Source of the DNA: a virus
Lineage: Duplodnaviria; Heunggongvirae; Uroviricota; Caudoviricetes
Reading direction: 5' to 3' (one strand)
IMG/VR virus record: IMGVR_UViG_2778261535_000010
Length of the DNA stretch: 18,578 nucleotides
In this document: positions 2,302-18,578 of the stretch, piece by piece
Layout of the letters: the number at the start of each line of letters is the position of its first letter
Numbering within the stretch: the first letter of the stretch is position 1
Translations under genes and position numbers: made by a program
The notes under the pieces: model-generated
The model's input: the letters and a program-made list of their open reading frames with translations, nothing else
What the model was told of the DNA's origin: nothing
Databases searched by the model: none

Positions 2302-2775
2302 ATGAGTGGCCCAAGTTTCAGTATCAGCGGCAAGCCAGTGATGGTGACGCCAACAGCGATCACCAACGGCGTGACGTTCTGGCCCGATCTCGATCTGGCC
2401 GAGTTTCAGAAGGTGCGCACGCTGCCCGCTGATCTGCCGCCAGAAACCGCAGGCGTGGCCCTGCTGGCTGCTATTGCGGAGGTAAACGACGCGCTGGCCG
2501 ACGTGGTGACGTACTGGAACGCGAAAGCCTGCGAGCGGGCCGCAGATGTACCGGGTGCAAAGATGGGCGACGAAACCCAGTTAACAGCCCAGTACAAAAA
2601 AGCGGTCTACGCCCGCGCAAAGGCCGATTTACTGGGGGAGTTCGCCACCATCGGGCGGCGTGAATCGCATCCGGGACAGGAAAGCCAGGACACCCGCGCC
2701 AGTCTGTTGGCCGAGGCGGCCAACGTGATGCGAAACATGCTGCGACAACCTCGCGTTGGGGTGCATCTGATATGA
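2302..2775 (+). CDS. head completion/stabilization protein (gpL-like)
   Basis: ATG at 2302 preceded by GAGG at 2291-2294. The ORF track extends to 2242 but that upstream Met has no RBS. Position after gpM matches P2. Confidence 0.6.
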   Translation: MSGPSFSISGKPVMVTPTAITNGVTFWPDLDLAEFQKVRTLPADLPPETAGVALLAAIAEVNDALADVVTYWNAKACERAADVPGAKMGDETQLTAQYKKAVYARAKADLLGEFATIGRRESHPGQESQDTRASLLAEAANVMRNMLRQPRVGVHLI

Positions 2776-3248
2776 GCCAGCTTGAAAGCCTGACGACATT
2801 TATTACGGAAAATCTGCCGCCTGATGCCATGCAGATGTTTTCCAGTGTGATGGAAGATTGCGGGCTGACACGCAACGCCAAAGCGATGGGAAACAACCAG
2901 CGCCGGATCGGGGTGCTGACTTACACCGGTCGTTTGTCATGGGATGATTTCCCCTACCGCAAGTATTCGCCGGGGCTGATTTATGCGCTGGTGCTGGCCT
3001 GGGTGGATGAGTTCGCCAACGAGCTGCGCGACGAGCTGAGGCTGGATGATCCAAAAGTGGACCCGGAGTTCGACGACGAAGGGGCATGCATTCTGGATGT
3101 GGTCATCCCGCTGGTTGATCCGCTGGTTTTGCGTGAAGCGGAAAACGGCCCGATCCCCTACAAAGGCAAGCGCTGGGAAATCGTGGACCCCGAAATCTGG
3201 GAGGCGTCGCAACTGGAATTTATTGTCCAGCGTGGTGACGCGTCGTGA
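2772..3248 (+). CDS. tail completion protein (P2 gpR-like)
   Basis: 158 aa; start overlaps the gpL stop (ATGA). The motif TYTGRLSWDDF...LIYALVLAWVDE resembles the P2 gpR pattern (TDFTG...PVLAWL) as I recall it; size is close to P2 gpR (155 aa). Confidence 0.5.
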   Translation: MSQLESLTTFITENLPPDAMQMFSSVMEDCGLTRNAKAMGNNQRRIGVLTYTGRLSWDDFPYRKYSPGLIYALVLAWVDEFANELRDELRLDDPKVDPEFDDEGACILDVVIPLVDPLVLREAENGPIPYKGKRWEIVDPEIWEASQLEFIVQRGDAS

Positions 3249-3940
3249 TCCGGGGGGAGCTGAACCAACAACAGCTAAAGCAGATGCGGGAAACGCTGGC
3301 AAAAGCTGACCTTCCCCCGCGTAAGCGCCAGCGCCTTTTATGGCGTATTGCAAAGCTGGGCATTGTCGCAGCGGCAAAACGTCACCAGCGCCAGCAGGCG
3401 GCCCCGGGCGGTACGCCGTGGGAGCCGCGCAAGCGTGGCAAAGGGAAGATGTTAAAAGGGCTGCCCAAGCTGTTGGCCGTGCGCGAAATGCCAGAGATTC
3501 AGGGGGTAAGAATTTACCTCAAGGGCGGGAACTACCGGAACGGGACGAAGCCGATCGCGGCGGGCCTGGTCGGTGCGGTCCAGCAGGACGGCGCACGGAT
3601 CCAGATGAAAGCCAGTAACGCCCCGCGCAAGCCGCAGGCTGACCAGCCAGCGCTACCGCGACAGGCCAAGCGTCTGCGGGCACTGGGCTACAAAACCCGC
3701 AAGGGCAAGCGCTGGGTTAAGCCGTCCAGCAGGCAAATCATGGAAACCATGAGCATGGCCCAGGCGGGATTACTGATTCGAAAACTGAAAGGCACACCAT
3801 CAAAACGCACATGGACTATTGATATTCCTGGTCGCGTTTTTCTGGGGGTGAGCAACGACGAATTTAACCAAATTATTGCGCGGCAAATGCAGGCAATCGG
3901 CTTCGGCTGGGACGTCAACGCGCAGCAAATCAGGGGGTAA
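3245..3940 (+). CDS. virion morphogenesis / tail completion protein (gpS-like)
   Basis: 231 aa; GTG start overlapping the previous stop (GTGA). Lys/Arg-rich central region. The nearest ATG alternative is at 3284. Confidence 0.45.
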   Translation: MIRGELNQQQLKQMRETLAKADLPPRKRQRLLWRIAKLGIVAAAKRHQRQQAAPGGTPWEPRKRGKGKMLKGLPKLLAVREMPEIQGVRIYLKGGNYRNGTKPIAAGLVGAVQQDGARIQMKASNAPRKPQADQPALPRQAKRLRALGYKTRKGKRWVKPSSRQIMETMSMAQAGLLIRKLKGTPSKRTWTIDIPGRVFLGVSNDEFNQIIARQMQAIGFGWDVNAQQIRG

Positions 3941-5088: not shown

Positions 5089-5544
5089 ATGACTGAACGT
5101 ATCAGCGGTGGATCGTTCGATGTGAACTACGACAGCATCATGATTCACGTCGAAAACGCCACCGTCACCATTACGGATAACAGCGCCGTTGCGCAGTCGC
5201 GTGGCATCCCGAACGGCCACACGAAAGGGGCAGTTTCGGCGGATGTGGAAGTCGAAGTCGACTCCCAGAACTTTAAAAAGTTTACCGCCGTGGCCCGTGC
5301 CGCAGGTTCCTGGCGATCCATTCCGGCAAAGGACTTTTTGTTCTACGCCAACGCCGGGGACGACGAAGAAAAAATCGAGGTGTTTGGCTGCGTTCCGACG
5401 CTGTCCGACATCGTCAACATCAACCCCAACGAGGCCAGCAAAACCACGAAGAAAATTAAATTCATGGTGACAAGCCCGGACTTTGTCGCGATTGACGGCG
5501 TGCCGTACCTGTCAGCCCGCGACACTCGCGATTTGAAAGGCTGA
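5089..5544 (+). CDS. tail tube protein (putative)
   Basis: 151 aa; starts 4 nt after the sheath stop. Size and position are typical for a tube protein. Confidence 0.5.
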   Translation: MTERISGGSFDVNYDSIMIHVENATVTITDNSAVAQSRGIPNGHTKGAVSADVEVEVDSQNFKKFTAVARAAGSWRSIPAKDFLFYANAGDDEEKIEVFGCVPTLSDIVNINPNEASKTTKKIKFMVTSPDFVAIDGVPYLSARDTRDLKG

Positions 5545-10753: not shown

Positions 10754-11339
10754 GTTTTCAACCTTGCTTGCCGGTCTGAAATTGCCGTCGTGGCTGAACA
10801 AAGGCGACCCCGCCAGGCTGTTGCGTGGCTGCGTGAAATTCTGGTCGCAGGTGTACGGGTGGATTACCTGGCCGTTAAAGCAGTTTGACCCACTGGTCTG
10901 CCCCGAACCGCTGTTAAACCTGATTGCCTGGGAACGCGACATCGTTCGGTTTAAGGGGGAGCCGCTCGACATTTTCCGCAAACGGGTGAGTTACGCATTT
11001 ATCAATGCGCAGCAGGCCGGAGAGGTGGCGGGCTTTATTGCCATTTTTGAGCGACTGGGGATTGGTTACGTTGAATTACTGGAGCGGCAGGACGGACTCG
11101 ACTGGGATGTGATTGTCGTTCGGGTGACAAACAGTCAGATTGCGGAAAATGGCGATCTCCTGCTGGAAATTATCCGTAAATATGGGCGTACATGCCGCCG
11201 TTACCAATTTGAAGTGATCACAGCCCTGCCACTGAATATCAATATCGGCTGGTATCAGGGGGAATATATTTGCTGGCCTGCCACCCTGAGTGATGTGAAT
11301 AACCAGCCCCAAATAACATACAGCGCAAGTTTGAAGTAG
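10746..11339 (+). CDS. tail protein I-like (baseplate, gpI family)
   Basis: ATG at 10746 with GGAGGT RBS; overlaps the J-like stop by 8 nt. About 197 aa, immediately upstream of the tail fiber. Confidence 0.55.
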   Translation: MTEFSTLLAGLKLPSWLNKGDPARLLRGCVKFWSQVYGWITWPLKQFDPLVCPEPLLNLIAWERDIVRFKGEPLDIFRKRVSYAFINAQQAGEVAGFIAIFERLGIGYVELLERQDGLDWDVIVVRVTNSQIAENGDLLLEIIRKYGRTCRRYQFEVITALPLNINIGWYQGEYICWPATLSDVNNQPQITYSASLK

Positions 11340-11350
11340 AGGAAAAACCT

Positions 11351-13036
11351 ATGTCACAGGCTGTTATTACAAAAGCATTTACAGAGTGGAAAGCCCAGCA
11401 GGCTATTAATAATCAGCCCGTCACGCTGGATGAATTTATTTTTGCGTATATTCCGGGGTTGGATGCTGATAAGCCGATTGATAATACCGAGACAGCACCC
11501 GCAGTGGATAAAATTGTTTATCGTCAGGTGGTGAGTAAATCCGGTGTTGTGAATGAAAACTCTGTCGTTTATTCCGTCACTATGGGGGCGGATGTGGGTG
11601 ATTTTGATTTCAACTGGATCGGTCTGGCAAATAAAGCCACCGGTACACTGGCGATGATTATTCATGCCCCGACCCAGCGTAAAATCAAAAATGCGAACGG
11701 CCAGCAGGGAAACGTTCTGGTCCGTTCCATGCTGATGGAATACAGCGGAGCCAGGGAAGCAACGGAAATTACCACCCCGGCAGAGACATGGCAGATTGAT
11801 TTTACTGCCCGGCTGGCGGCAATGGATGAACGCCAGCGCCGCGAAAATATCGATCTGTATGGCGCAGCGGCTTTTTTTGATTCGGGCTATCTGGTAGCCA
11901 AAACCGGCAATCAATTTTTTGTCACAAAGGGGGCGGGATACGTCGCCGGGTTACGTGCTGAATTGCCCGCAAACATGAATATCACTGCATCCGCGAAGCC
12001 AACAAAGGTCTGGCTTGATGTCAGCTGGACCGGGACGTTAACGAGCGAATGGGCAGTGCAGAGCAAAATCACCGTTGCCGCAGATCTTGCCGATTATGTA
12101 CTGGGCGGTGTGCAGCATTATGTCTTTGCGGTGGCGAGTATTGATGCTACCGGAAATGTCATGGACCTGCGCCCGAAAGGCACGCTGAACCACCAGGCGG
12201 CCAGTGATGCGCTGAAAAAGCATGAGCAGTCGCGAAATCACCCTGATGCCTCAATCAGCGAAAAAGGGTTTGTGCAGTTAAGCAATGCCACGAACAGCGA
12301 TTCCGAGACACTGGCCGCCACGCCAAAGGCAGTAAAAGCGGTGAATGAGAATGCGAATAAGCGCGTTCCTTCCGAACGCAAAGTGAATGGTAAGCCACTG
12401 ACGGAAGATATTGAGATTACGTCGATAACGGGTAATGCAGGGACTGCCACGAAGCTGGCTACAGCCCGCACTATAGGGGGAGTGGGGTTTGATGGTTCGG
12501 CTAACATTAATCTGCCGGGTGTAAACACTCAGGGAAACCAGAACACTACGGGTAATGCAGGGACTGCCACAAAGCTGGCTACAGCTCGCACTATAGGGGG
12601 AGTGGAGTTTGATGGTTCGGCAAACATTAATCTGCCGGGGGTAAACACTCAGGGAAACCAGAACACCACAGGTAACGCTGCAACAGCCACAAAGTTGCAT
12701 ACAGCTCGCACAATTAATGGCGTTGTTTTTGACGGTACGAAAGATATTGCTATTTCAGCAAGTGCGATTGGTTCCTACACAAAAGCGGAATCTGATGCAC
12801 GATTTCAGATAATTGTTCCTGTTTCTGGTGCGGTGGGTACTTATGCCTTCGCCCGAATTGAATCAGGTAATACCACTATTAATTTTGGTTCCACTCTGCC
12901 CGGTTCAGTACTTCGTGCAACATGTGGAGATGGCACTCTGGCCGGTAATGCTCTTGCAGGTACATGGCGATGTTGTGGAGCAACTTGGGGATCTTCCTGG
13001 TACAGTCGAAATACTGTATGGATTCGCATTGTATAA
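11351..13036 (+). CDS. tail fiber protein
   Basis: 561 aa. Contains SETLAATPKAVKAVNE and tandem KLATARTIGGVxFDGSANINL repeats typical of phage tail fibers. Followed by a tail fiber assembly gene. Confidence 0.85.
   Translation: MSQAVITKAFTEWKAQQAINNQPVTLDEFIFAYIPGLDADKPIDNTETAPAVDKIVYRQVVSKSGVVNENSVVYSVTMGADVGDFDFNWIGLANKATGTLAMIIHAPTQRKIKNANGQQGNVLVRSMLMEYSGAREATEITTPAETWQIDFTARLAAMDERQRRENIDLYGAAAFFDSGYLVAKTGNQFFVTKGAGYVAGLRAELPANMNITASAKPTKVWLDVSWTGTLTSEWAVQSKITVAADLADYVLGGVQHYVFAVASIDATGNVMDLRPKGTLNHQAASDALKKHEQSRNHPDASISEKGFVQLSNATNSDSETLAATPKAVKAVNENANKRVPSERKVNGKPLTEDIEITSITGNAGTATKLATARTIGGVGFDGSANINLPGVNTQGNQNTTGNAGTATKLATARTIGGVEFDGSANINLPGVNTQGNQNTTGNAATATKLHTARTINGVVFDGTKDIAISASAIGSYTKAESDARFQIIVPVSGAVGTYAFARIESGNTTINFGSTLPGSVLRATCGDGTLAGNALAGTWRCCGATWGSSWYSRNTVWIRIV
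12428..12750 (+). repeat. in-frame 120-bp tandem repeat inside the tail fiber gene (two near-identical copies plus a diverged third)
   Basis: Copy 1 (12428-12547) and copy 2 (12548-12667) differ at about 5 positions. From 12668 the homology continues but is diverged (GNAATATKLHTARTINGVVFDG). Confidence 0.9.
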
Positions 13037-13049
13037 TTTGGAGGTGCTT

Positions 13050-13448
13050 ATGTTTGAGAATGCAACGATTGATAACCCTCGAACCACAAATATCAATATT
13101 TATATTGATGTGGATATTCACCTGAATGATCAATCAATTACTTTTACTTCGATGCCTGACGACTCCGAAATATATAGTGTTGAGATTTATAAACGCGCTT
13201 TAAATGGCGAGTTTGGAAAAATTATAACTATTGAAAATGATGTTTTTTCGGCAAACAAACTACAAAAAGACATGTTGCAATCAAGGGCGGCTGAATCAAT
13301 TACTGTTCTTGAATATGCGGTTGAATTGAAAATGGCAACGGAAAAGGAAATGCAACTACTCAATGAATGGAAAAAATATGTAGTTTTATTAAGCCGCGTT
13401 AATTTAACAAACCCTAAATGGCCGGAGGTTCCGGGCGATGTGGCGTGA
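13050..13448 (+). CDS. tail fiber assembly protein (Tfa/gpG-like chaperone)
   Basis: 133 aa; GGAGG RBS with ATG at 13050. C-terminal NPKWPEVP motif typical of Tfa proteins. Markedly AT-rich compared with neighbouring genes. Confidence 0.7.
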   Translation: MFENATIDNPRTTNINIYIDVDIHLNDQSITFTSMPDDSEIYSVEIYKRALNGEFGKIITIENDVFSANKLQKDMLQSRAAESITVLEYAVELKMATEKEMQLLNEWKKYVVLLSRVNLTNPKWPEVPGDVA

Positions 13449-14160
13449 ATCGGTTGTAAAGATTGCTGATGATATGGGGGCGCTGGCCTGTTCCATTGTC
13501 CCCGCGCATCCCTGGGTTTACGGTCTGGGACAGAACACGGATTCAGGCGGTTATCTTAGCCCGGCCAATGCGATGGGATATCTTGCTAAAAAGCTGTTAT
13601 CCGGTGTCGGTAGCGGTGACGTCATCGTCATGATGGTGGCGGAGAATACCCACGACGCTTTTATGCAGGGACTGAATAAACTGTCCACCGTATTTCCGGC
13701 CCCGGTATTTACGCAGGTAAGCCGCATGGCCGCAGCCGCCGCAGAACTCAGCACGGTAAAAATGCAGTTGCCGGTTAAAGCCGACGTATTGCCAGCCAGT
13801 GCGCCGTTATCTGTCTCAACCAACCGGCTGGCGCTGAATGCCCAGCGGGTTGCCGCCGCTCAGCTGGCCGCCTCAGTCAGTACCACCACAACAGATCTAA
13901 AAAATCAGGTTACGGGCTTTATTCAGGAACGGGCCGGTTTGCTGGCCTCACTCAGCCAGGGACTGGACGATCTGAAAGCCGCCAGTGCGAATATTTTTTC
14001 ATTCAGTTACAGCGGGAGTTATGCCGTTGCAGCCGCTGAATTGCTGAAAGGCATCCCGCAAACAACGGCAGTGCATACCGCCGCGATGATGTTTATCGGG
14101 GATTCGTTATCTGACTTAGAGAAGATGCTACATGAGCCAGACCGCATTACTCGCGCTTGA
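13438..14160 (+). CDS. hypothetical phage protein (unassigned, Ala-rich)
   Basis: 240 aa; GGAGG RBS 9 nt upstream of ATG 13438; overlaps the Tfa stop. Phage-like G+C. No motif I can assign. Confidence 0.4.
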   Translation: MWRESVVKIADDMGALACSIVPAHPWVYGLGQNTDSGGYLSPANAMGYLAKKLLSGVGSGDVIVMMVAENTHDAFMQGLNKLSTVFPAPVFTQVSRMAAAAAELSTVKMQLPVKADVLPASAPLSVSTNRLALNAQRVAAAQLAASVSTTTTDLKNQVTGFIQERAGLLASLSQGLDDLKAASANIFSFSYSGSYAVAAAELLKGIPQTTAVHTAAMMFIGDSLSDLEKMLHEPDRITRA

Positions 14161-14674
14161 TGGTGAAGGGATCGCCATGCAAAACATGCTGGTTTCACCT
14201 TCCATGCAGTTTCAGGAGAAGGACCAGTCGGGCCAGACATCGAGCACGGCCAATGCTGAACAGGGTATCAAGGCCAAAGAGCTGCGCGTGTCGGGTCTGG
14301 TGACATTCGACGACGAAGCCGTTTTACAGCGGCTTTTCCAGCTGGCATCCGCAACCGAAGCCAGCGGCGCACTGAAAAAGTACCGCGTCGCAAATGCGAC
14401 GGCAACGGCTATCAACCTTCGTGAAGCCACGTTCACCGGCCAGATTGATGCCGTACCGCAGGAGGATCGCCTTGCCTGGCAGGTAAGTTTTACCCTGCGT
14501 GAAAAAGGCAGCGTCCCGGAAAAACGACAGGCCCGCAAAGGTAATGCGACGGCCAGCACCAAGCAAACGGGGTCAAAGGGCGCGGGTTCGGCTGCCGGTG
14601 CTGACGAGCCAGCCGACAAAATGAGCTGGTTTGAAGAAAAGGTCTTAAAGCCGGTCAACGATGCGCTGGGGTAA
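14132..14674 (+). CDS. hypothetical phage tail protein (possibly gpU-like tube initiator)
   Basis: 180 aa; alternative start at 14177 has a better RBS (GAAGGG). Assignment rests only on size and its position just upstream of the hub/spike gene. Confidence 0.35.
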   Translation: MSQTALLALDGEGIAMQNMLVSPSMQFQEKDQSGQTSSTANAEQGIKAKELRVSGLVTFDDEAVLQRLFQLASATEASGALKKYRVANATATAINLREATFTGQIDAVPQEDRLAWQVSFTLREKGSVPEKRQARKGNATASTKQTGSKGAGSAAGADEPADKMSWFEEKVLKPVNDALG

Positions 14675-14681
14675 TTAAACG

Positions 14682-16406
14682 ATGAAACCAATTAAACGCC
14701 TGTACCTTTCCTCTGATCCGGTCCATCTGATTGACTGCAATATCGTGCTGGAGCTGAACGCGTGCGGTCGGGGGTTTATTACGGCGGGGACCGAGACAGA
14801 TTACACCGGTAAAATAGTGCGTATCGATGTTGGTTATGATGGTCTGGTCCTGCGCTGGTTTACCGGGTATGTCGAGCGGTCACAGCCTGCTGATAATGGA
14901 ACATGCCGGTTGTTCGTGCGTGAGCTGGTAGGCATCTTTGATAAATTGTGGCCGTGTTCTTTCCAGCATCCAACGCTGCGCCAGATTACTGACTGGATAA
15001 GTGAGCAAAGCGGGCTGGCCGTCACAACGCCGGTCGGCGCTGCTTATGCAGATAAACCGATCCCCCACTTTACGCACAGCGGCACGGGCTATCAGCTTCT
15101 TGCCATTCTGGGCCGCGCATTTTCAGTGACGGATTATCTCTGGTATCAGCTGCCGGACGGGGATGTCTTCGTCGGCGCTGCGGATCACAGTCTTTTTGCG
15201 GGTAAACCAGTGGAGATCCCGCACGAATTTAGTCAGGCATCGGCAGGCGGTAATTCAATGGTTGTGCCGATGATTCAGAGCCTGCGCCCCGGCGTTGACG
15301 TCAACGGCCATCGGCTAAACCAGGTCCGGCTAAATAACGACGATATGGCAATCACCTGGCAGCCACGCAGCAAAGCCAACGGCCAGCCATTGCAAAAATC
15401 ACCGATTCAGCGGCAGATTGAAAACGCATTCCCGGAGCTGGCAAGCGGCCTGCATCTTCCAAAGTTCGCCAGAGTGGAAGCACCAAGCGAGGATGTATCA
15501 GGGGGGAATATTGCCGATCCATTCCGCCCGCGCTATGCCGTGGATCTCCAGCTGCTTGACGAAGACGGCAAGCCAGCCGCAAATACGCCGGTTTATTCTG
15601 CCGTTCCGCTACCTGTACCAATGGCGGGGAGCGAGTCGGGAATGTTCCAGTTTCCGCCCCCTGGCACGCTGGTTGAAGTCGGGTTCACGGAGGGGCGGCA
15701 GGATAAGCCCTTTGTGCGCCAGATTATGGCGGAGGGGCATAACCTGCCAGCGGTTAAACCCGGCGAGCAATTGCAGCAACAGCGCGATGGTGTATCGCAG
15801 CGCGTGACGGTTGCCGGAGACTGGGAACGCCAGACGGACCAGACAATTCGCGAAAACTCCATGACTCGCGAAGTCACCACCGACGAAGAGATCCGCAAAG
15901 TGGTTGTCCGTGAAACTACGGTCCAGGCAACAGATAAAACAACCGTGCTGGGCACGGCCACACTTCTGGCCGGGGCGGTGGTCCATATCAGCGAGGGTGA
16001 TTACAGTATTGGCACATCCGGCAACCTGACAGTAACCTGCAGCAAGGACAATTCCGTCAGTGTTGGCCGGAACGTGAAACGGGACGTCGCGGGCAATGTT
16101 ACAGACGACGTGAAAGGGAATGTCACGTCAAACGTCAGCGGCGCACTGACTGAAAAAATCAGCGGCATCCGCCGAAGTGTGGCCCAGGCGCAACAGTTGA
16201 TTGCCCCGGTGGTAAAACTGGGAAGCGAAGAGATTAACGTCCTGACACTACTCACTGACACCCTGGACGTGGTGAGGGTGCTGGCAGAGACTGCCGCATC
16301 ACATACTCACCCCAATACGGGGACCAGCGGGCAGGCTGCGCAGTTCACCGCAACGGCCACTAAAACCGGTACATTGAAAAGCAAATACGGCCCCCTGATA
16401 GCCTGA
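14682..16406 (+). CDS. baseplate hub/central spike protein (VgrG-like architecture; gpV-like C-terminus, possibly fused to a gpD-like N-terminus)
   Basis: 574 aa. The C-terminal region has octapeptide V-x-G repeats (DVAGNVTD / DVKGNVTS / NVSGALTE / KISGIRRS) visible as 24-nt periodicity around 16057-16170, and an H-x-H motif (SHTHP, about 16301-16309) like spike apex iron sites. It is the last gene before att, as gpD is in P2. Confidence 0.55.
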   Translation: MKPIKRLYLSSDPVHLIDCNIVLELNACGRGFITAGTETDYTGKIVRIDVGYDGLVLRWFTGYVERSQPADNGTCRLFVRELVGIFDKLWPCSFQHPTLRQITDWISEQSGLAVTTPVGAAYADKPIPHFTHSGTGYQLLAILGRAFSVTDYLWYQLPDGDVFVGAADHSLFAGKPVEIPHEFSQASAGGNSMVVPMIQSLRPGVDVNGHRLNQVRLNNDDMAITWQPRSKANGQPLQKSPIQRQIENAFPELASGLHLPKFARVEAPSEDVSGGNIADPFRPRYAVDLQLLDEDGKPAANTPVYSAVPLPVPMAGSESGMFQFPPPGTLVEVGFTEGRQDKPFVRQIMAEGHNLPAVKPGEQLQQQRDGVSQRVTVAGDWERQTDQTIRENSMTREVTTDEEIRKVVVRETTVQATDKTTVLGTATLLAGAVVHISEGDYSIGTSGNLTVTCSKDNSVSVGRNVKRDVAGNVTDDVKGNVTSNVSGALTEKISGIRRSVAQAQQLIAPVVKLGSEEINVLTLLTDTLDVVRVLAETAASHTHPNTGTSGQAAQFTATATKTGTLKSKYGPLIA

Positions 16407-16477
16407 CAAAAAGCGGCATAACCGCACACATCACCAGACACCACAGAACGCGCCACAGCAGGCGCAAATATTAAAGG

Positions 16478-16515
16478 TCGCCAACGTGCGGCCTTTCGTT
16501 CGTTCGTTCAACAGC
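16478..16515 (+). terminator. putative intrinsic terminator of the late operon
   Basis: GGUCGC/GCGGCC stem (one G-U pair) with a 6-nt loop, followed by the U-rich UUUCGUUCGUUCGUU, about 70 nt after the hub/spike stop. Confidence 0.35.
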
Positions 16516-16952
16516 GGCCCACAGCGTAAGCGACAGCAGGCAGACGGAAGCGGATCCAGGACGGAAACGGCGCTACACCGCACCCGCCTGCGCAGTTTGG
16601 ATCATAAAAATTTTGCAAAAGAAATTTTGCGCAAAGCACCCCGCCAGCCTGCGCCGCTGATGGGATTTTGCATCCTGCGGGCGTTTGCACGCTGCGCAAA
16701 GATTTGCAGCACTTTGCAAAAGTCACCGCGCAGTCAGTCGCTAACTGACTGGATAACATGATGTTTTTAAAAGGATCGTTTTGGTTTTCGTGACGATCAA
16801 AATGATTCGGTGGCATCCGGTAGTTTTCGGACGCGGATATCGTGAAGCCTTGCGCGGCGCGGGCTGGCGGCAGGTTTGCTTTGATTTGGGTTTTGCAAAA
16901 TGATGCACGAAGATTTGATAAAAGAATCTACAGCGAAGGGGGGGGAAGTATT

Positions 16953-16984
16953 AAAAAACCCCGTTTTGTGGACGGGGTTTGTTT
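16953..16984. terminator. bidirectional hairpin terminator
   Basis: CCCCGT (16959-16964) and ACGGGG (16972-16977) form a 6-bp stem with a 7-nt loop, flanked by AAAAAA on the 5' side and TTTGTTT on the 3' side. On the minus strand it is followed by six U. Confidence 0.45.
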
Positions 16985-17005
16985 GATGTGGTCAATGTGT
17001 GGACG
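16967..17005 (+). promoter_or_regulatory. candidate arm-type integrase binding sites (three direct repeats)
   Basis: TGTGGACG at 16967-16974, TGTGGTCA at 16987-16994 and TGTGGACG at 16998-17005, within 80 bp of the att core. They resemble the P2 Int arm-site consensus (TGTGGACA) as I recall it. Confidence 0.45.
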
Positions 17006-17045
17006 TTGTAAGAAATAAATCCATTTATTTCAGTAGATTACAGGC

Positions 17046-17072
17046 AAAAAATAAGCCCGTGTAAGGGAGATT
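17046..17072. other. P2-type attachment site core (prophage-host junction, attR or attL)
   Basis: AAAAAATAAGCCCGTGTAAGGGAGATT matches the 27-bp P2 att core from memory. It coincides with the 3' terminator half of cyaR. Phage-type sequence lies to the left and host genes to the right. Confidence 0.65.
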
Positions 17073-17132
17073 ACACAGGCTAAGGAGGTGGTTCCTGGTA
17101 CAGCTAGCATTTTATGGGTTATGTTTTTCAGC
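17046..17132 (-). ncRNA. cyaR: CyaR (RyeE) Hfq-dependent small RNA
   Basis: The reverse complement reads GCTGAAAAACATAACCCATAAAATGCTAGCTGTACCAGGAACCACCTCCTTAGCCTGTGTAATCTCCCTTACACGGGCTTATTTTTT, matching the E. coli CyaR sequence as I recall it, including the terminator hairpin and U tail. It lies downstream of yegQ as in E. coli. Confidence 0.85.
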
Positions 17133-17139
17133 GAAACGG

Positions 17140-17182
17140 ATGATAACCTTAATAAATGCAGCTGTATGTGATCGGTTTCTAA
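17140..17182 (-). promoter_or_regulatory. cyaR promoter with class II-type CRP site
   Basis: On the minus strand, a TATCAT -10 hexamer (17140-17145) sits about 7 nt upstream of the CyaR 5' end. A CRP-like site TTAGAaaccgaTCACA (17167-17182) is centred near -42. cyaR is known to be CRP-activated. Confidence 0.5.
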
Positions 17183-17216
17183 GAATTTTCCATCCGGGAA
17201 AAATAATCGAAATTAA

Positions 17217-18578
17217 TCACTTACCGTGGGGGTTACGCGTGGTTTCCCCGGAGAAATTACGCATCAGCAGCGCGTAATTTAGCTCAAGATCCTGCGGCAC
17301 CGGGATCCACACAGTATAACCATCGCCTGGTGCGACCGGCATAGCTTCACCTTTGGCGTTTTCCATATGCTCAAGGGTAAAGTTAATGTTGCCTTGCGGC
17401 GTCATCAGCTCAAGGCTGTCGCCAACGGAGAATTTATTTTTCACCGCTACCGCCGCGAGGTCGCCCTTGCGCTCACCGGTAAACTCACCAACAAACTGCT
17501 GGCGGTCAGAAACTGAATAACCGTATTCGTAGTTCTGATAATCGTCGTGAGTATGACGACGCAGGAAACCTTCGGTATAGCCACGATGCGCCAGACCTTC
17601 CAGAGTTTCCAGCAGGCTGGTATCGAATGGTTTGCCCGCAGCGGCATCATCGATAGCTTTACGATAAACCTGTGCGGTGCGTGCGCAATAGTAGAAAGAT
17701 TTGGTACGGCCTTCGATTTTCAGCGAATGCACGCCCATTTTGGTCAGGCGTTCTACATGGGCGATGGCGCGCAGATCTTTCGAGTTCATGATGTAAGTGC
17801 CGTGCTCATCTTCAAACGCGGTCATATACTCGCCCGGACGCTGGGCTTCTTCGATCATAAACACTTTGTCAGTTGGTGCGCCGATACCCAGCGTCGGCTC
17901 AACATTTTGCACCGGAATCGGCTCGTACTTGTGTACGATGTTGCCAACGTCATCTTCTTTCCCTTCCTGGACGTTGTACTCCCAGCGGCAGGCGTTGGTG
18001 CAGGTGCCCTGATTCGGATCGCGCTTGTTGATGTAGCCAGAGAGCAGGCAGCGACCAGAGTAGGCCATACACAGCGCGCCGTGAACGAAGATCTCTACCT
18101 CCATATCCGGCACCTGATTGCGGATCTCTTCAATCTCTTCCAGCGACAGCTCGCGAGAGAGGATCACGCGGGTCAGGCCCATTTGCTGCCAGAATTTCAC
18201 CGTCGCCCAGTTCACGGCGTTAGCCTGTACCGAGAGATGGATCGGCATTTCAGGGAAGTGCTCACGCACCAGCATAATCAGCCCTGGATCGGACATAATC
18301 AGCGCATCCGGCCCCATTTCCACCACCGGTTTCAGGTCACGGATAAAGGTTTTCAGCTTGGCGTTGTGCGGTGCAATGTTGACCACGACATAAAACTTTT
18401 TCCCCAGCGCATGGGCTTCATTAATGCCGAGCTGAAGATTTTCGTGGTTGAATTCGTTGTTGCGCACACGCAGGGAGTAACGCGGCTGGCCCGCATAAAC
18501 AGCATCTGCGCCATAAGCGAAAGCGTAACGCATATTTTTCAGCGTTCCCGCCGGGGAAAGGAGTTCCGGTTTAAACAT
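17217..18578 (-). CDS. yegQ: peptidase U32 family protein YegQ (tRNA hydroxylation protein TrhP)
   Basis: Complete 453-aa ORF; the window ends exactly at its start codon. MFKPELLSPAGTLKNMRYAFAYGADAVYAGQPRYSLRV... matches E. coli YegQ as I recall it. Has the conserved neighbourhood with cyaR. Confidence 0.85.
   Translation of the reverse strand: MFKPELLSPAGTLKNMRYAFAYGADAVYAGQPRYSLRVRNNEFNHENLQLGINEAHALGKKFYVVVNIAPHNAKLKTFIRDLKPVVEMGPDALIMSDPGLIMLVREHFPEMPIHLSVQANAVNWATVKFWQQMGLTRVILSRELSLEEIEEIRNQVPDMEVEIFVHGALCMAYSGRCLLSGYINKRDPNQGTCTNACRWEYNVQEGKEDDVGNIVHKYEPIPVQNVEPTLGIGAPTDKVFMIEEAQRPGEYMTAFEDEHGTYIMNSKDLRAIAHVERLTKMGVHSLKIEGRTKSFYYCARTAQVYRKAIDDAAAGKPFDTSLLETLEGLAHRGYTEGFLRRHTHDDYQNYEYGYSVSDRQQFVGEFTGERKGDLAAVAVKNKFSVGDSLELMTPQGNINFTLEHMENAKGEAMPVAPGDGYTVWIPVPQDLELNYALLMRNFSGETTRNPHGK

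What the first reader, a model, noticed from the sequence alone, without database searches (positions are those of the whole stretch)
13438..14674. Two unassigned, translationally coupled ORFs between the Tfa gene and the hub/spike gene
ORFs of 240 aa (Ala-rich, no motif I can place) and 180 aa sit between the fiber module and the hub/spike gene. The region downstream of fiber/Tfa genes is a recognised accessory-gene hotspot in P2-like phages (the P2 Z/fun position), but their phage-like G+C and tight coupling to flanking structural genes argue for structural roles; the 180-aa protein could be a gpU-like tube initiator. I cannot tell from sequence alone whether these are core tail proteins or cargo; no clear defence or anti-defence signature is visible.
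Basis: inference. Interest (0 to 1): 0.5.

Follow-up and report, generated by a model that had tools for sequence, protein, structure and literature searches.

The report
Two ordinary HP1-type phage tail genes
The two ORFs are inherited late tail genes of an HP1-type (P2-related) prophage: the 180-aa protein is the tail-tube initiator next to the hub, and the 240-aa protein is a conserved, poorly understood minor virion protein, so neither is accessory cargo.

Summary
ORFs of 240 aa (13438-14160) and 180 aa (14132-14674) sit between the tail-fibre assembly (Tfa) gene and the hub/spike gene, and they overlap their neighbours.

They are not unassigned cargo. The window is the late operon of an HP1-subgroup Peduoviridae prophage integrated next to yegQ. 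It is 95.6% identical in DNA to Salmonella phage SI7. The pair corresponds to HP1 orf33 and orf34, in the same order as in HP1, K139, phiO18P and YenM324.

**ORF-B (180 aa)**
- It is a full-length member of Pfam PF25759, "HP1 ORF34 baseplate complex protein" (E=6e-53).
- It was found in all 12 HP1-subgroup phages examined.
- It is the functional analogue of P2 gpU, although it shows no detectable sequence similarity to gpU.

**ORF-A (240 aa)**
- It belongs to phrog_1677 (function unknown), has no Pfam family and has no convincing fold match.
- It is under purifying selection.
- It abuts ORF-B in 75/75 SI7-like and 9/9 K139-like viral contigs, but it is absent from 76/76 PV94-like contigs.
- Its homologue in phage ACA1 was detected in virions by published mass spectrometry.
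- It is most likely a lineage-specific minor baseplate protein.

The real cargo slot lies downstream of the hub gene. A related E. coli prophage carries an AbiH gene there.

Interest is low.

The parts
13050..13448 (+). Tail-fibre assembly protein (Tfa). It is part of a swapped, low-G+C fibre-tip/Tfa cassette. Its last 11 nt overlap the ORF-A start.
   Evidence: Pfam Caudo_TAP E=4e-17. G+C is 0.358. Homology to E. coli relatives starts only at about 13419. Identity to the SI7 Tfa is only 48% over half its length, while neighbouring genes are 95-100% identical.
13438..14160 (+). ORF-A, 240 aa. Homologue of HP1 orf33 / K139 orf37 (phrog_1677). A conserved late-operon protein, probably a minor virion (baseplate) protein. 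Biochemical role unknown.
14132..14674 (+). ORF-B, 180 aa. Homologue of HP1 orf34 (Pfam PF25759). Tail-tube-fold protein encoded next to the hub. Assigned as the tube initiator (functional analogue of P2 gpU and the pyocin ripcord), with a flexible linker (about 128-162) and a conserved C-terminal helix (166-179).
14682..16406 (+). Hub plus spike fusion protein, 574 aa. Homologue of HP1 orf35, equivalent to P2 gpD fused to gpV. Last gene of the late operon.
   Evidence: phrog_2258 E=3e-273; weak Phage_base_V, Gp5_C and VgrG hits at residues 310-497. The literature states that HP1 fuses the gpD and gpV homologues (PMC10612066 Table S1, footnote d).
16407..17216 (.). Prophage end and cargo slot between the hub gene and host yegQ/trhP. 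It holds no recognisable cargo gene in this window.
   Evidence: E. coli GN06156 has the same prophage at yegQ with an AbiH-family gene in this slot. Phage phi3 carries HicAB there. The window has only small ORFs with no Pfam or PADLOC hit.

Best explanation
Both ORFs are vertically inherited late-operon tail genes of an HP1-subgroup Peduoviridae prophage. They are the counterparts of HP1 orf33 and orf34.

**ORF-B**
ORF-B is the tube initiator. It is a tail-tube-fold protein that (inferred) forms the ring on top of the trimeric hub/spike protein encoded immediately downstream, and that ring nucleates tube polymerisation. Its conserved C-terminal helix sits on a flexible linker. By analogy with the P2 gpU C-terminal helix and the pyocin ripcord, this helix probably reaches out to the wedge (J/I) complex.

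**ORF-A**
ORF-A is a lineage-specific, low-copy virion protein of the same tail module. It most likely sits in or on the baseplate. It would dock through its conserved N-terminal strand and through a conserved segment (about 103-130) that is predicted to be disordered on its own. Its exact role is not established. The candidates are stabilising or 'glue' contacts, or a role in mounting the Tfa-dependent fibres.

**Shown and inferred**
Shown: homology, synteny, purifying selection, the fold of ORF-B, and published virion detection of an ORF-A homologue. Inferred: stoichiometry, position in the baseplate and the contacts.
For: **Identity of the element**
- 95.6% DNA identity to Salmonella phage SI7, with the same gene order.
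- The inventory is HP1-type throughout: P2-family capsid, gpL, gpR, gpS, DUF2586 sheath, HP1 Orf24 tube, lysis genes, tail assembly chaperone (TAC), tape measure protein (TMP), DUF2590, J, I, fibre, Tfa.

**ORF-B**
- PF25759 E=6e-53, full length. 45% identity to HP1 orf34.
- The gene abuts the hub gene, and a separate major tube gene sits next to the sheath gene.
- Found in 12/12 HP1-subgroup phages.
- The architecture of tube core, disordered linker and invariant C-terminal helix parallels the gpU helix that contacts the triplex in the P2 cryo-EM preprint (10.64898/2026.09.14.750843).
- Hardies and co-workers independently proposed 'gpU?' for HP1 orf34 from HHpred and synteny (PMC10612066).

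**ORF-A**
- Homologous to HP1 orf33.
- Same position in SI7, YenM324, HP1, K139, ValB1MD-2, phiO18P, phi3 and ACA1.
- Present in 75/75 and 9/9 viral contigs and adjacent to ORF-B in 39/40 species genomes.
- dN/dS 0.13.
- Its divergence tracks the module but runs faster, at a rate like the TMP.
- ACA1 gp46 gave 2 spectra in virion MS, similar to gpW (1), gpJ (2) and gpV (2).
- YenM324 gp33 is annotated 'structural protein'.
- No promoter or terminator of its own, G+C like the rest of the phage, and no PADLOC hit.
- The low-pLDDT segment 103-128 contains invariant or near-invariant residues L104, M109, Q110, P112, L118, P123-V126 and T128. This is typical of a segment that folds on a partner.
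Against: **ORF-B**
- No sequence similarity to P2 gpU or Pfam PF06995.
- It was not detected in ACA1 virion MS.

**ORF-A**
- The MS support is only 2 spectra in one distant phage (16% identity to HP1 orf33).
- The AF2 model is moderate (pLDDT 72, pTM 0.63). It matched nothing convincing in the PDB or BFVD, not even family members.
- ORF-A is absent from a whole lineage: PV94, yong1, C5a, SMHB1 and 76/76 PV94-like contigs. This lineage also lacks a LysM gpX gene and still includes isolated phages. ORF-A therefore cannot be an indispensable part of the HP1-type baseplate.
- In one metagenomic phage the ORF-A domain is fused to another domain and encoded elsewhere in the late region.
Confidence: 0.8

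Rival explanations
1. ORF-A is not a virion component but a morphogenetic factor, that is, an assembly chaperone. It would work either on the Tfa-dependent tail fibres or on the hub/tube-initiator complex, and would be present in particles only as a trace contaminant.
For: - ORF-A co-varies with a Caudo_TAP-type Tfa gene at lineage level. Tfa is found in 67/70 SI7-like and 7/9 K139-like loci, and neither gene is found in 75-76 PV94-like loci.
- It lies between Tfa and the hub genes.
- It evolves fast.
- The MS signal in ACA1 is only 2 spectra at 6% coverage.
- The PV94-like lineage builds tails without it.
Against: - The Tfa correlation rests on very few independent evolutionary events. SMHB1 has a weak Tfa-like gene and no ORF-A.
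- ORF-A is not exchanged with the fibre-tip/Tfa cassette. The recombination junction lies just upstream of it, at about 13419.
- Its spectral count in ACA1 equals that of accepted baseplate proteins.
Confidence: 0.22
2. ORF-A, or both ORFs, is accessory cargo (a moron) occupying the hotspot downstream of the fibre/Tfa genes. Examples would be superinfection exclusion, defence or anti-defence functions.
For: - Function is unknown and ORF-A has no Pfam family.
- The position superficially resembles P2 Z/fun.
- ORF-A is absent from one lineage of related phages.
- One genome has a foreign gene (a lysozyme) inserted at the A/B junction, so insertions are tolerated there.
Against: - Same strand as the late operon, overlapping reading frames, and no promoter or terminator of its own.
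- G+C and GC3 like the neighbours.
- Strict synteny from Haemophilus to Vibrio to Enterobacterales, with co-divergence.
- Presence in 84/84 contigs within its lineages.
- Purifying selection like the baseplate genes.
- No PADLOC hit.
- Detected in virions.
- The family's variable cargo sits after the hub gene instead.
Confidence: 0.04
3. ORF-B is something other than a tube initiator. Options are a DNA-binding or DNA-repair protein, as some GenBank records label its homologues ('adenine glycosylase', 'nucleoid DNA-binding protein'), or a second tail tube or Hcp-like subunit.
For: - Annotations in YenM324, PV94, SMHB1, phi3 and ValB1MD-2.
Against: - No glycosylase or DNA-binding Pfam or NCBIfam hit.
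- The only significant family is PF25759, baseplate complex protein.
- The fold is the tail-tube fold, with initiators and ripcords on top.
- The phage already has a dedicated tube protein next to the sheath gene.
- Constant adjacency to the hub gene in 12/12 phages.
Confidence: 0.05

Closest known systems
Haemophilus phage HP1 orf33-orf34-orf35 (also K139 orf37-39, phiO18P gp44-46, Salmonella phage SI7 gp22-24)
   Same: Same three genes in the same order at the end of the late operon, after the fibre and Tfa genes. ORF-A is 28% identical to HP1 orf33 and ORF-B is 45% identical to HP1 orf34. Against SI7 the identities are 95% and 100%.
   Different: Nothing essential. The fibre tip and Tfa upstream are a different cassette. 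K139- and phiO18P-type orf33 homologues carry an insertion of about 50 aa after the conserved N-terminus.
P2 gpU (tube initiator) and the R2 pyocin ripcord PA0626
   Same: - Gene immediately upstream of the hub gene.
- Tube core followed by a C-terminal element that in P2 and the pyocin contacts the wedge/triplex.
   Different: - No detectable sequence similarity to gpU or PF06995.
- It belongs to a separate Pfam family (PF25759).
- It is not preceded by the tape-measure gene as in P2.
- It is much shorter than PA0626 (285 aa) and lacks its long helical ripcord domain.
P2 gpX 'glue' protein (LysM; T4 gp53 class)
   Same: gpX is the only P2 baseplate component with no counterpart in the HP1-type module. 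ORF-A is the only HP1-type late protein with no P2 counterpart. A functional substitution is therefore conceivable.
   Different: - No sequence similarity.
- No LysM domain in ORF-A or in its long-form relatives.
- ORF-A is 240 aa against 67 aa for gpX.
- The PV94-like lineage has neither ORF-A nor an annotated gpX. This weakens the substitution idea.
P2 Z/fun accessory locus
   Same: It lies downstream of the fibre assembly gene.
   Different: Z/fun is on the opposite strand, between two operons, with terminators and its own promoter. The ORFs here are co-directional, overlapping and inside one operon. In this phage family the variable slot is after the hub gene.

Membership tests
Pfam PF25759 (HP1_ORF34, baseplate complex protein), for ORF-B | Score above the curated gathering threshold over the full length of the profile | tested here: met
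   179.6 bits against a cutoff of 27, E=6.1e-53. Residues 7-180 align to profile positions 3-176 of 180. All 120 listed homologues carry PF25759.
Contractile-tail tube initiator (P2 gpU / T4 gp48-gp54 / pyocin ripcord class), for ORF-B | Tail-tube (Hcp-like) fold | tested here: met
   [not shown]
Contractile-tail tube initiator, for ORF-B | Distinct from the major tube protein and encoded next to the hub gene | tested here: met
   The major tube gene (PF10772) is at 5089-5544, beside the sheath gene. ORF-B ends 7 nt before the hub/spike gene. The same adjacency holds in 12/12 phages.
Contractile-tail tube initiator, for ORF-B | Forms the ring between the hub trimer and the first tube ring in the virion | not testable with these tools
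   No solved structure of any HP1-type tail protein was detectable by sequence. ORF-B's ACA1 homologue was not detected by MS.
Pfam PF06995 (Phage_P2_GpU), for ORF-B | Sequence match to the GpU family | tested here: not met
   No PF06995 hit at E up to 1. hhalign of the ORF-B profile against P2 gpU gave probability 0.2. The literature reports only an 'uncertain' 15% HHpred match.
HP1 orf33 family (phrog_1677), for ORF-A | Significant profile match and homology to HP1 orf33 | tested here: met
   phrog_1677 E=8.6e-77. BLASTP E=2e-23 and hhalign probability 99.3 to HP1 orf33.
HP1 orf33 family, for ORF-A | Position between Tfa/fibre and the orf34 homologue in an HP1-type late operon | tested here: met
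   The exceptions are L185 (fusion encoded elsewhere) and L223 (lysozyme inserted between A and B).
Virion structural (baseplate) protein, for ORF-A | Physically present in purified virions | not testable with these tools
   Only indirect evidence. ACA1 gp46 gave 2 spectra (PMC10612066 Table S2). YenM324 gp33 carries a 'structural protein' annotation of unknown basis.
LysM 'glue' protein (P2 gpX / T4 gp53), for ORF-A | LysM domain | tested here: not met
   No LysM or other Pfam hit in ORF-A or in 10 distant or long-form relatives. hhalign against gpX gave probability 0.5.
Moron / defence cargo, for both ORFs | Own regulatory signals, atypical composition, patchy distribution among close relatives, match to defence families | tested here: not met

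The most novel reading that the evidence does not exclude
ORF-A (the HP1 orf33 family) is a previously unrecognised class of contractile-tail baseplate protein with a fold not yet seen in solved tails. It would be specific to the HP1-type lineages that use Tfa-dependent fibres. It would either take over the inter-wedge 'glue' role that the LysM protein gpX plays in P2, or tether and mount the fibres. A further possibility is that it recruits a tail-associated muramidase, given two independent cases where a lysozyme-like gene directly follows an ORF-A-family gene.
Probability: 0.3. Interest if true: 0.4.

Novelty: already known. Interest (0 to 1): 0.18.

Why it matters
It matters little beyond correct annotation.

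**Annotation value**
- Both genes are 95-100% identical to genes of sequenced Salmonella phages, and both belong to catalogued families.
- ORF-B homologues are widely mislabelled ('adenine glycosylase', 'DNA-binding protein', 'tail-collar fiber protein'). They should be called tube initiator or baseplate complex protein.
- People looking for defence or anti-defence cargo in HP1-type prophages should look after the hub gene, not between Tfa and the hub.

**The one open point**
HP1 orf33 is the single late protein of this tail type with no P2 counterpart, no Pfam family and no recognisable fold. No HP1-type baseplate structure exists. A cryo-EM structure of SI7, HP1 or K139 would settle what it does.

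Tried and rejected
1. **N-terminal truncation of ORF-A by the Tfa cassette swap.** The PHROG alignment starts at profile position 57, which suggested a truncation. Rejected. Enterobacterales homologues are all about 240 aa. The long forms keep the same 'MxW' N-terminus and carry an internal insertion of about 50 aa.

2. **LysM in the long-form N-terminal extension**, which would link ORF-A to gpX. No Pfam hit in 10 representatives.

3. **ORF-A hidden as a C-terminal domain of the long fibres of PV94 and C5a, or as SMHB1 gp46.** hhalign and HMM searches were negative.

4. **A small gpX-like substitute in phages that lack ORF-A.** PV94 and yong1 gp48 (65 aa) are not LysM. No gpX-like gene is annotated in PV94 or HP1.

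7. **Searches that could not be run or found nothing.** BFVD gave nothing. The K139 genome paper and any YenM324 paper are not held.
Full report
**1. Observation**

The ORF listing gives + strand ORFs at 13438-14160 (240 aa, ATG) and 14132-14674 (180 aa, ATG), exactly as reported.

Reading the sequence:
- The ORF-A ATG (13438) lies 11 nt inside the end of the upstream gene, whose stop is TGA 13446-13448.
- A GGAGG sits at 13424-13428.
- ORF-B starts 29 nt before the ORF-A stop.
- The next gene starts at 14682, 7 nt after the ORF-B stop.

A consensus scan of 11000-17300 finds no + strand promoter-like site. The only + strand terminator-like site in the pair is a weak 5-bp stem inside ORF-B.

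ORF-A is 15.8% Ala. G+C is 0.545 for ORF-A and 0.573 for ORF-B, against 0.555 for the prophage part of the window. The Tfa gene just upstream is 0.358. 'Translational coupling' remains an inference from the overlaps.

**2. What the element is**

The window is the late region of an HP1-type member of the Peduoviridae. The Pfam and PHROG assignments, in gene order, are:
- P2-family capsid and small terminase
- gpL, gpR and gpS
- sheath (DUF2586) and tube (HP1 Orf24)
- holin, M15 endolysin and spanins
- tail assembly chaperone (TAC) and tape measure protein (TMP)
- DUF2590 (the gpW-like sheath initiator)
- baseplate J and I
- tail-collar fibre and Tfa
- the two ORFs
- a 574-aa baseplate protein with weak gpV/gp5 spike signatures

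The ORF pair is 95.6% identical in DNA to Salmonella phages SI7, SW3 and SW5 (genus Irrigatiovirus), where the genes are gp22 and gp23.

The window ends in host yegQ/trhP, which is about 97% identical to E. coli. Nineteen of 5426 complete E. coli genomes carry the same prophage end.

**3. The pair is HP1 orf33 and orf34**

In HP1 the last genes of the late operon are orf31 (fibre), orf32 (Tfa), orf33 (258 aa), orf34 (187 aa) and orf35 (533 aa).
- ORF-A matches orf33: 28% identity, E=2e-23, hhalign probability 99.3.
- ORF-B matches orf34: 45% identity, E=4e-37.

The same trio in the same order occurs in Yersinia phage YenM324, K139 (orf37-39), phiO18P (gp44-46) and ValB1MD-2. It also occurs in phi3, where the orf33 homologue is unannotated, and in ACA1.

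**4. ORF-B**

Family and distribution:
- It is a full-length member of Pfam PF25759, 'Bacteriophage HP1 ORF34 baseplate complex protein' (E=6e-53).
- NCBI and UniRef already name many homologues 'baseplate complex protein'.
- An HMM finds a homologue directly upstream of the hub gene in all 12 HP1-subgroup phages examined.

Structure:
- The AlphaFold model, built from 59 sequences, has a core at pLDDT above 90. It also has a disordered, low-complexity stretch (128-162) and a C-terminal helix (166-179).
- The C-terminal helix residues W166, F167, E168, V171, L172 and P174 are invariant in the alignment.
- Major tube proteins score only slightly lower. The 'initiator' call therefore rests on context: the phage has its own tube gene beside the sheath gene, and ORF-B is glued to the hub gene.

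Comparison with P2:
- A 2026 cryo-EM preprint on P2 (10.64898/2026.09.14.750843) shows six gpU on three gpD. A gpU C-terminal helix touches the J/I triplex. ORF-B has the same layout.
- There is no sequence similarity to gpU or PF06995. ORF-B works like gpU but is not a member of that Pfam family.
- Hardies and colleagues reached the same tentative assignment ('gpU?') for HP1 orf34 (PMC10612066).

**5. ORF-A**

Sequence searches:
- The only family hit is phrog_1677, function unknown (E=9e-77). There are no Pfam, NCBIfam, PADLOC or PDB sequence matches, even with a 97-sequence profile.
- An exhaustive profile search of 1.84 billion representatives finds only 225 clusters. These fall into two length classes (about 240 and about 290 aa) that share the N-terminal 'MxW' motif.

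Structure:
- The AlphaFold model is moderate (pLDDT 72, pTM 0.63). It has an alpha/beta part formed by residues 1-85 and 183-228, and a long helical hairpin.
- The low-confidence segment (103-128) nevertheless holds many invariant residues.

Evolution:
- ORF-A is under purifying selection. dN/dS is 0.13, against 0.08-0.10 for ORF-B, J and the hub, although dS is saturated.
- It co-diverges with the module but faster, at a rate like the tape measure. Against YenM324 it is 45% identical while the baseplate proteins are 59-64%. Against HP1 it is 27% while they are 41-63%.

**6. Core or variable?**

Within its lineages ORF-A is fixed:
- 75/75 SI7-like viral contigs have it abutting ORF-B.
- 9/9 K139-like viral contigs have it abutting ORF-B.
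- 39/40 full-length cases in representative Enterobacterales genomes have it adjacent to ORF-B.

It is absent from PV94, yong1, C5a and SMHB1, and from 76/76 PV94-like contigs. There ORF-B follows the fibre gene. hhalign finds no hidden ORF-A domain in three of them, PV94, C5a and SMHB1.

Those phages also lack a Caudo_TAP Tfa (0/75, against 67/70 and 7/9 in the other lineages). This correlation reflects very few independent events. SMHB1 has a weak Tfa-like gene without ORF-A.

All the fibres checked share the same N-terminal baseplate-binding domain, PF12571. Neither lineage has an annotated LysM gpX. This weakens the idea that ORF-A simply replaces gpX.

**7. Direct evidence for a virion role**

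The only experimental data I found are in PMC10612066 Table S2. ACA1 gp46, annotated 'HP1 orf33', was detected in purified virions with 2 spectra at 6% coverage. This is in the range of gpW (1), gpJ (2) and gpV (2). YenM324 gp33 is annotated 'structural protein' on an unknown basis.

Three features fit a peripheral structural protein:
- the conserved but intrinsically unstructured segment;
- the variable N-terminal insertions;
- a 527-aa protein in a metagenomic HP1-like phage that carries the ORF-A domain at its C-terminus.

None of this proves it.

**8. Not cargo**

Several lines of evidence exclude a moron or defence reading:
- operon-internal position and overlapping frames;
- composition like the rest of the phage;
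- strict synteny across Haemophilus, Vibrio, Aeromonas, Pseudomonas and Enterobacterales phages;
- purifying selection;
- no PADLOC hits.

The family's variable slot is after the hub gene. It holds AbiH in E. coli GN06156 at the same yegQ site, HicAB in phi3, and small ORFs in SI7. It is essentially empty in this window.

**9. Verdict**

These are ordinary, already catalogued tail genes. ORF-B is the tube initiator (a gpU analogue, in PF25759). ORF-A is the HP1 orf33-family minor virion protein, whose precise role is unknown and which is lineage-specific rather than universal.

The hotspot alternative is not supported.

The residual interest is that orf33 is the one uncharacterised piece of a tail type for which no structure exists.

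Noticed in passing
window 16407-17216; L186 3508-5393: The real variable cargo slot of this prophage family is downstream of the hub/spike gene, at the junction with host yegQ/trhP. E. coli GN06156 has the same prophage with an AbiH-family abortive-infection gene there. Phage phi3 has HicAB and SI7 has two small ORFs. In the window the slot has only small ORFs without any family hit.
   Followed up: partly
window ~12500-13420: The fibre C-terminus and Tfa form a low-G+C cassette (0.36-0.48) that is swapped relative to SI7 and to the E. coli relatives. The recombination junction is at about 13419, 19 nt before the ORF-A start. ORF-A therefore belongs to the conserved backbone and not to the host-range cassette.
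   Followed up: partly
L223 4712-5203 (Citrobacter sp. FP75): A 163-aa phage lysozyme gene (PF00959, E=3e-8) is inserted between the ORF-A and ORF-B homologues. In metagenomic phage L185 an ORF-A-domain fusion protein is also directly followed by an endolysin-like gene. That makes two independent adjacencies of ORF-A-family genes to muramidase-like genes. This is unexplained.
   Followed up: partly
L185 8001-9584 (JGI 3300074354): A 527-aa protein (P0453) carries the ORF-A-family domain at residues 306-526, behind an unrelated Ala/Gly/Thr-rich N-terminal domain of about 305 aa. It is encoded between the tube gene and the lysis genes. In that phage ORF-B follows the fibre gene directly.
   Followed up: partly
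L002, L085, L086, L088, L089, L091 (GenBank/RefSeq records): ORF-B homologues are annotated inconsistently and probably wrongly. Labels include 'adenine glycosylase' (YenM324, PV94, SMHB1), 'nucleoid DNA-binding protein' (phi3), 'DNA-binding protein' (ValB1MD-2) and 'tail-collar fiber protein' (yong1). The orf33 homologue of phi3 (L086, about 2581-3495) is not annotated at all.
   Followed up: yes
L085, L087, L088, L089, L090: The hub and spike are one fused gene in the window, SI7, HP1, K139 and phiO18P. They are split into two genes in PV94, yong1, C5a, SMHB1 and ACA1. PV94 and yong1 add a conserved 65-aa gene (phrog_5576) after the spike gene.
   Followed up: no
L229, L232, L233: Some Enterobacterales genomes hold only fragments of the ORF-A gene (profile positions 14-98, 1-46 and 163-232) without an adjacent ORF-B. 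These are presumably decayed prophage remnants.
   Followed up: no
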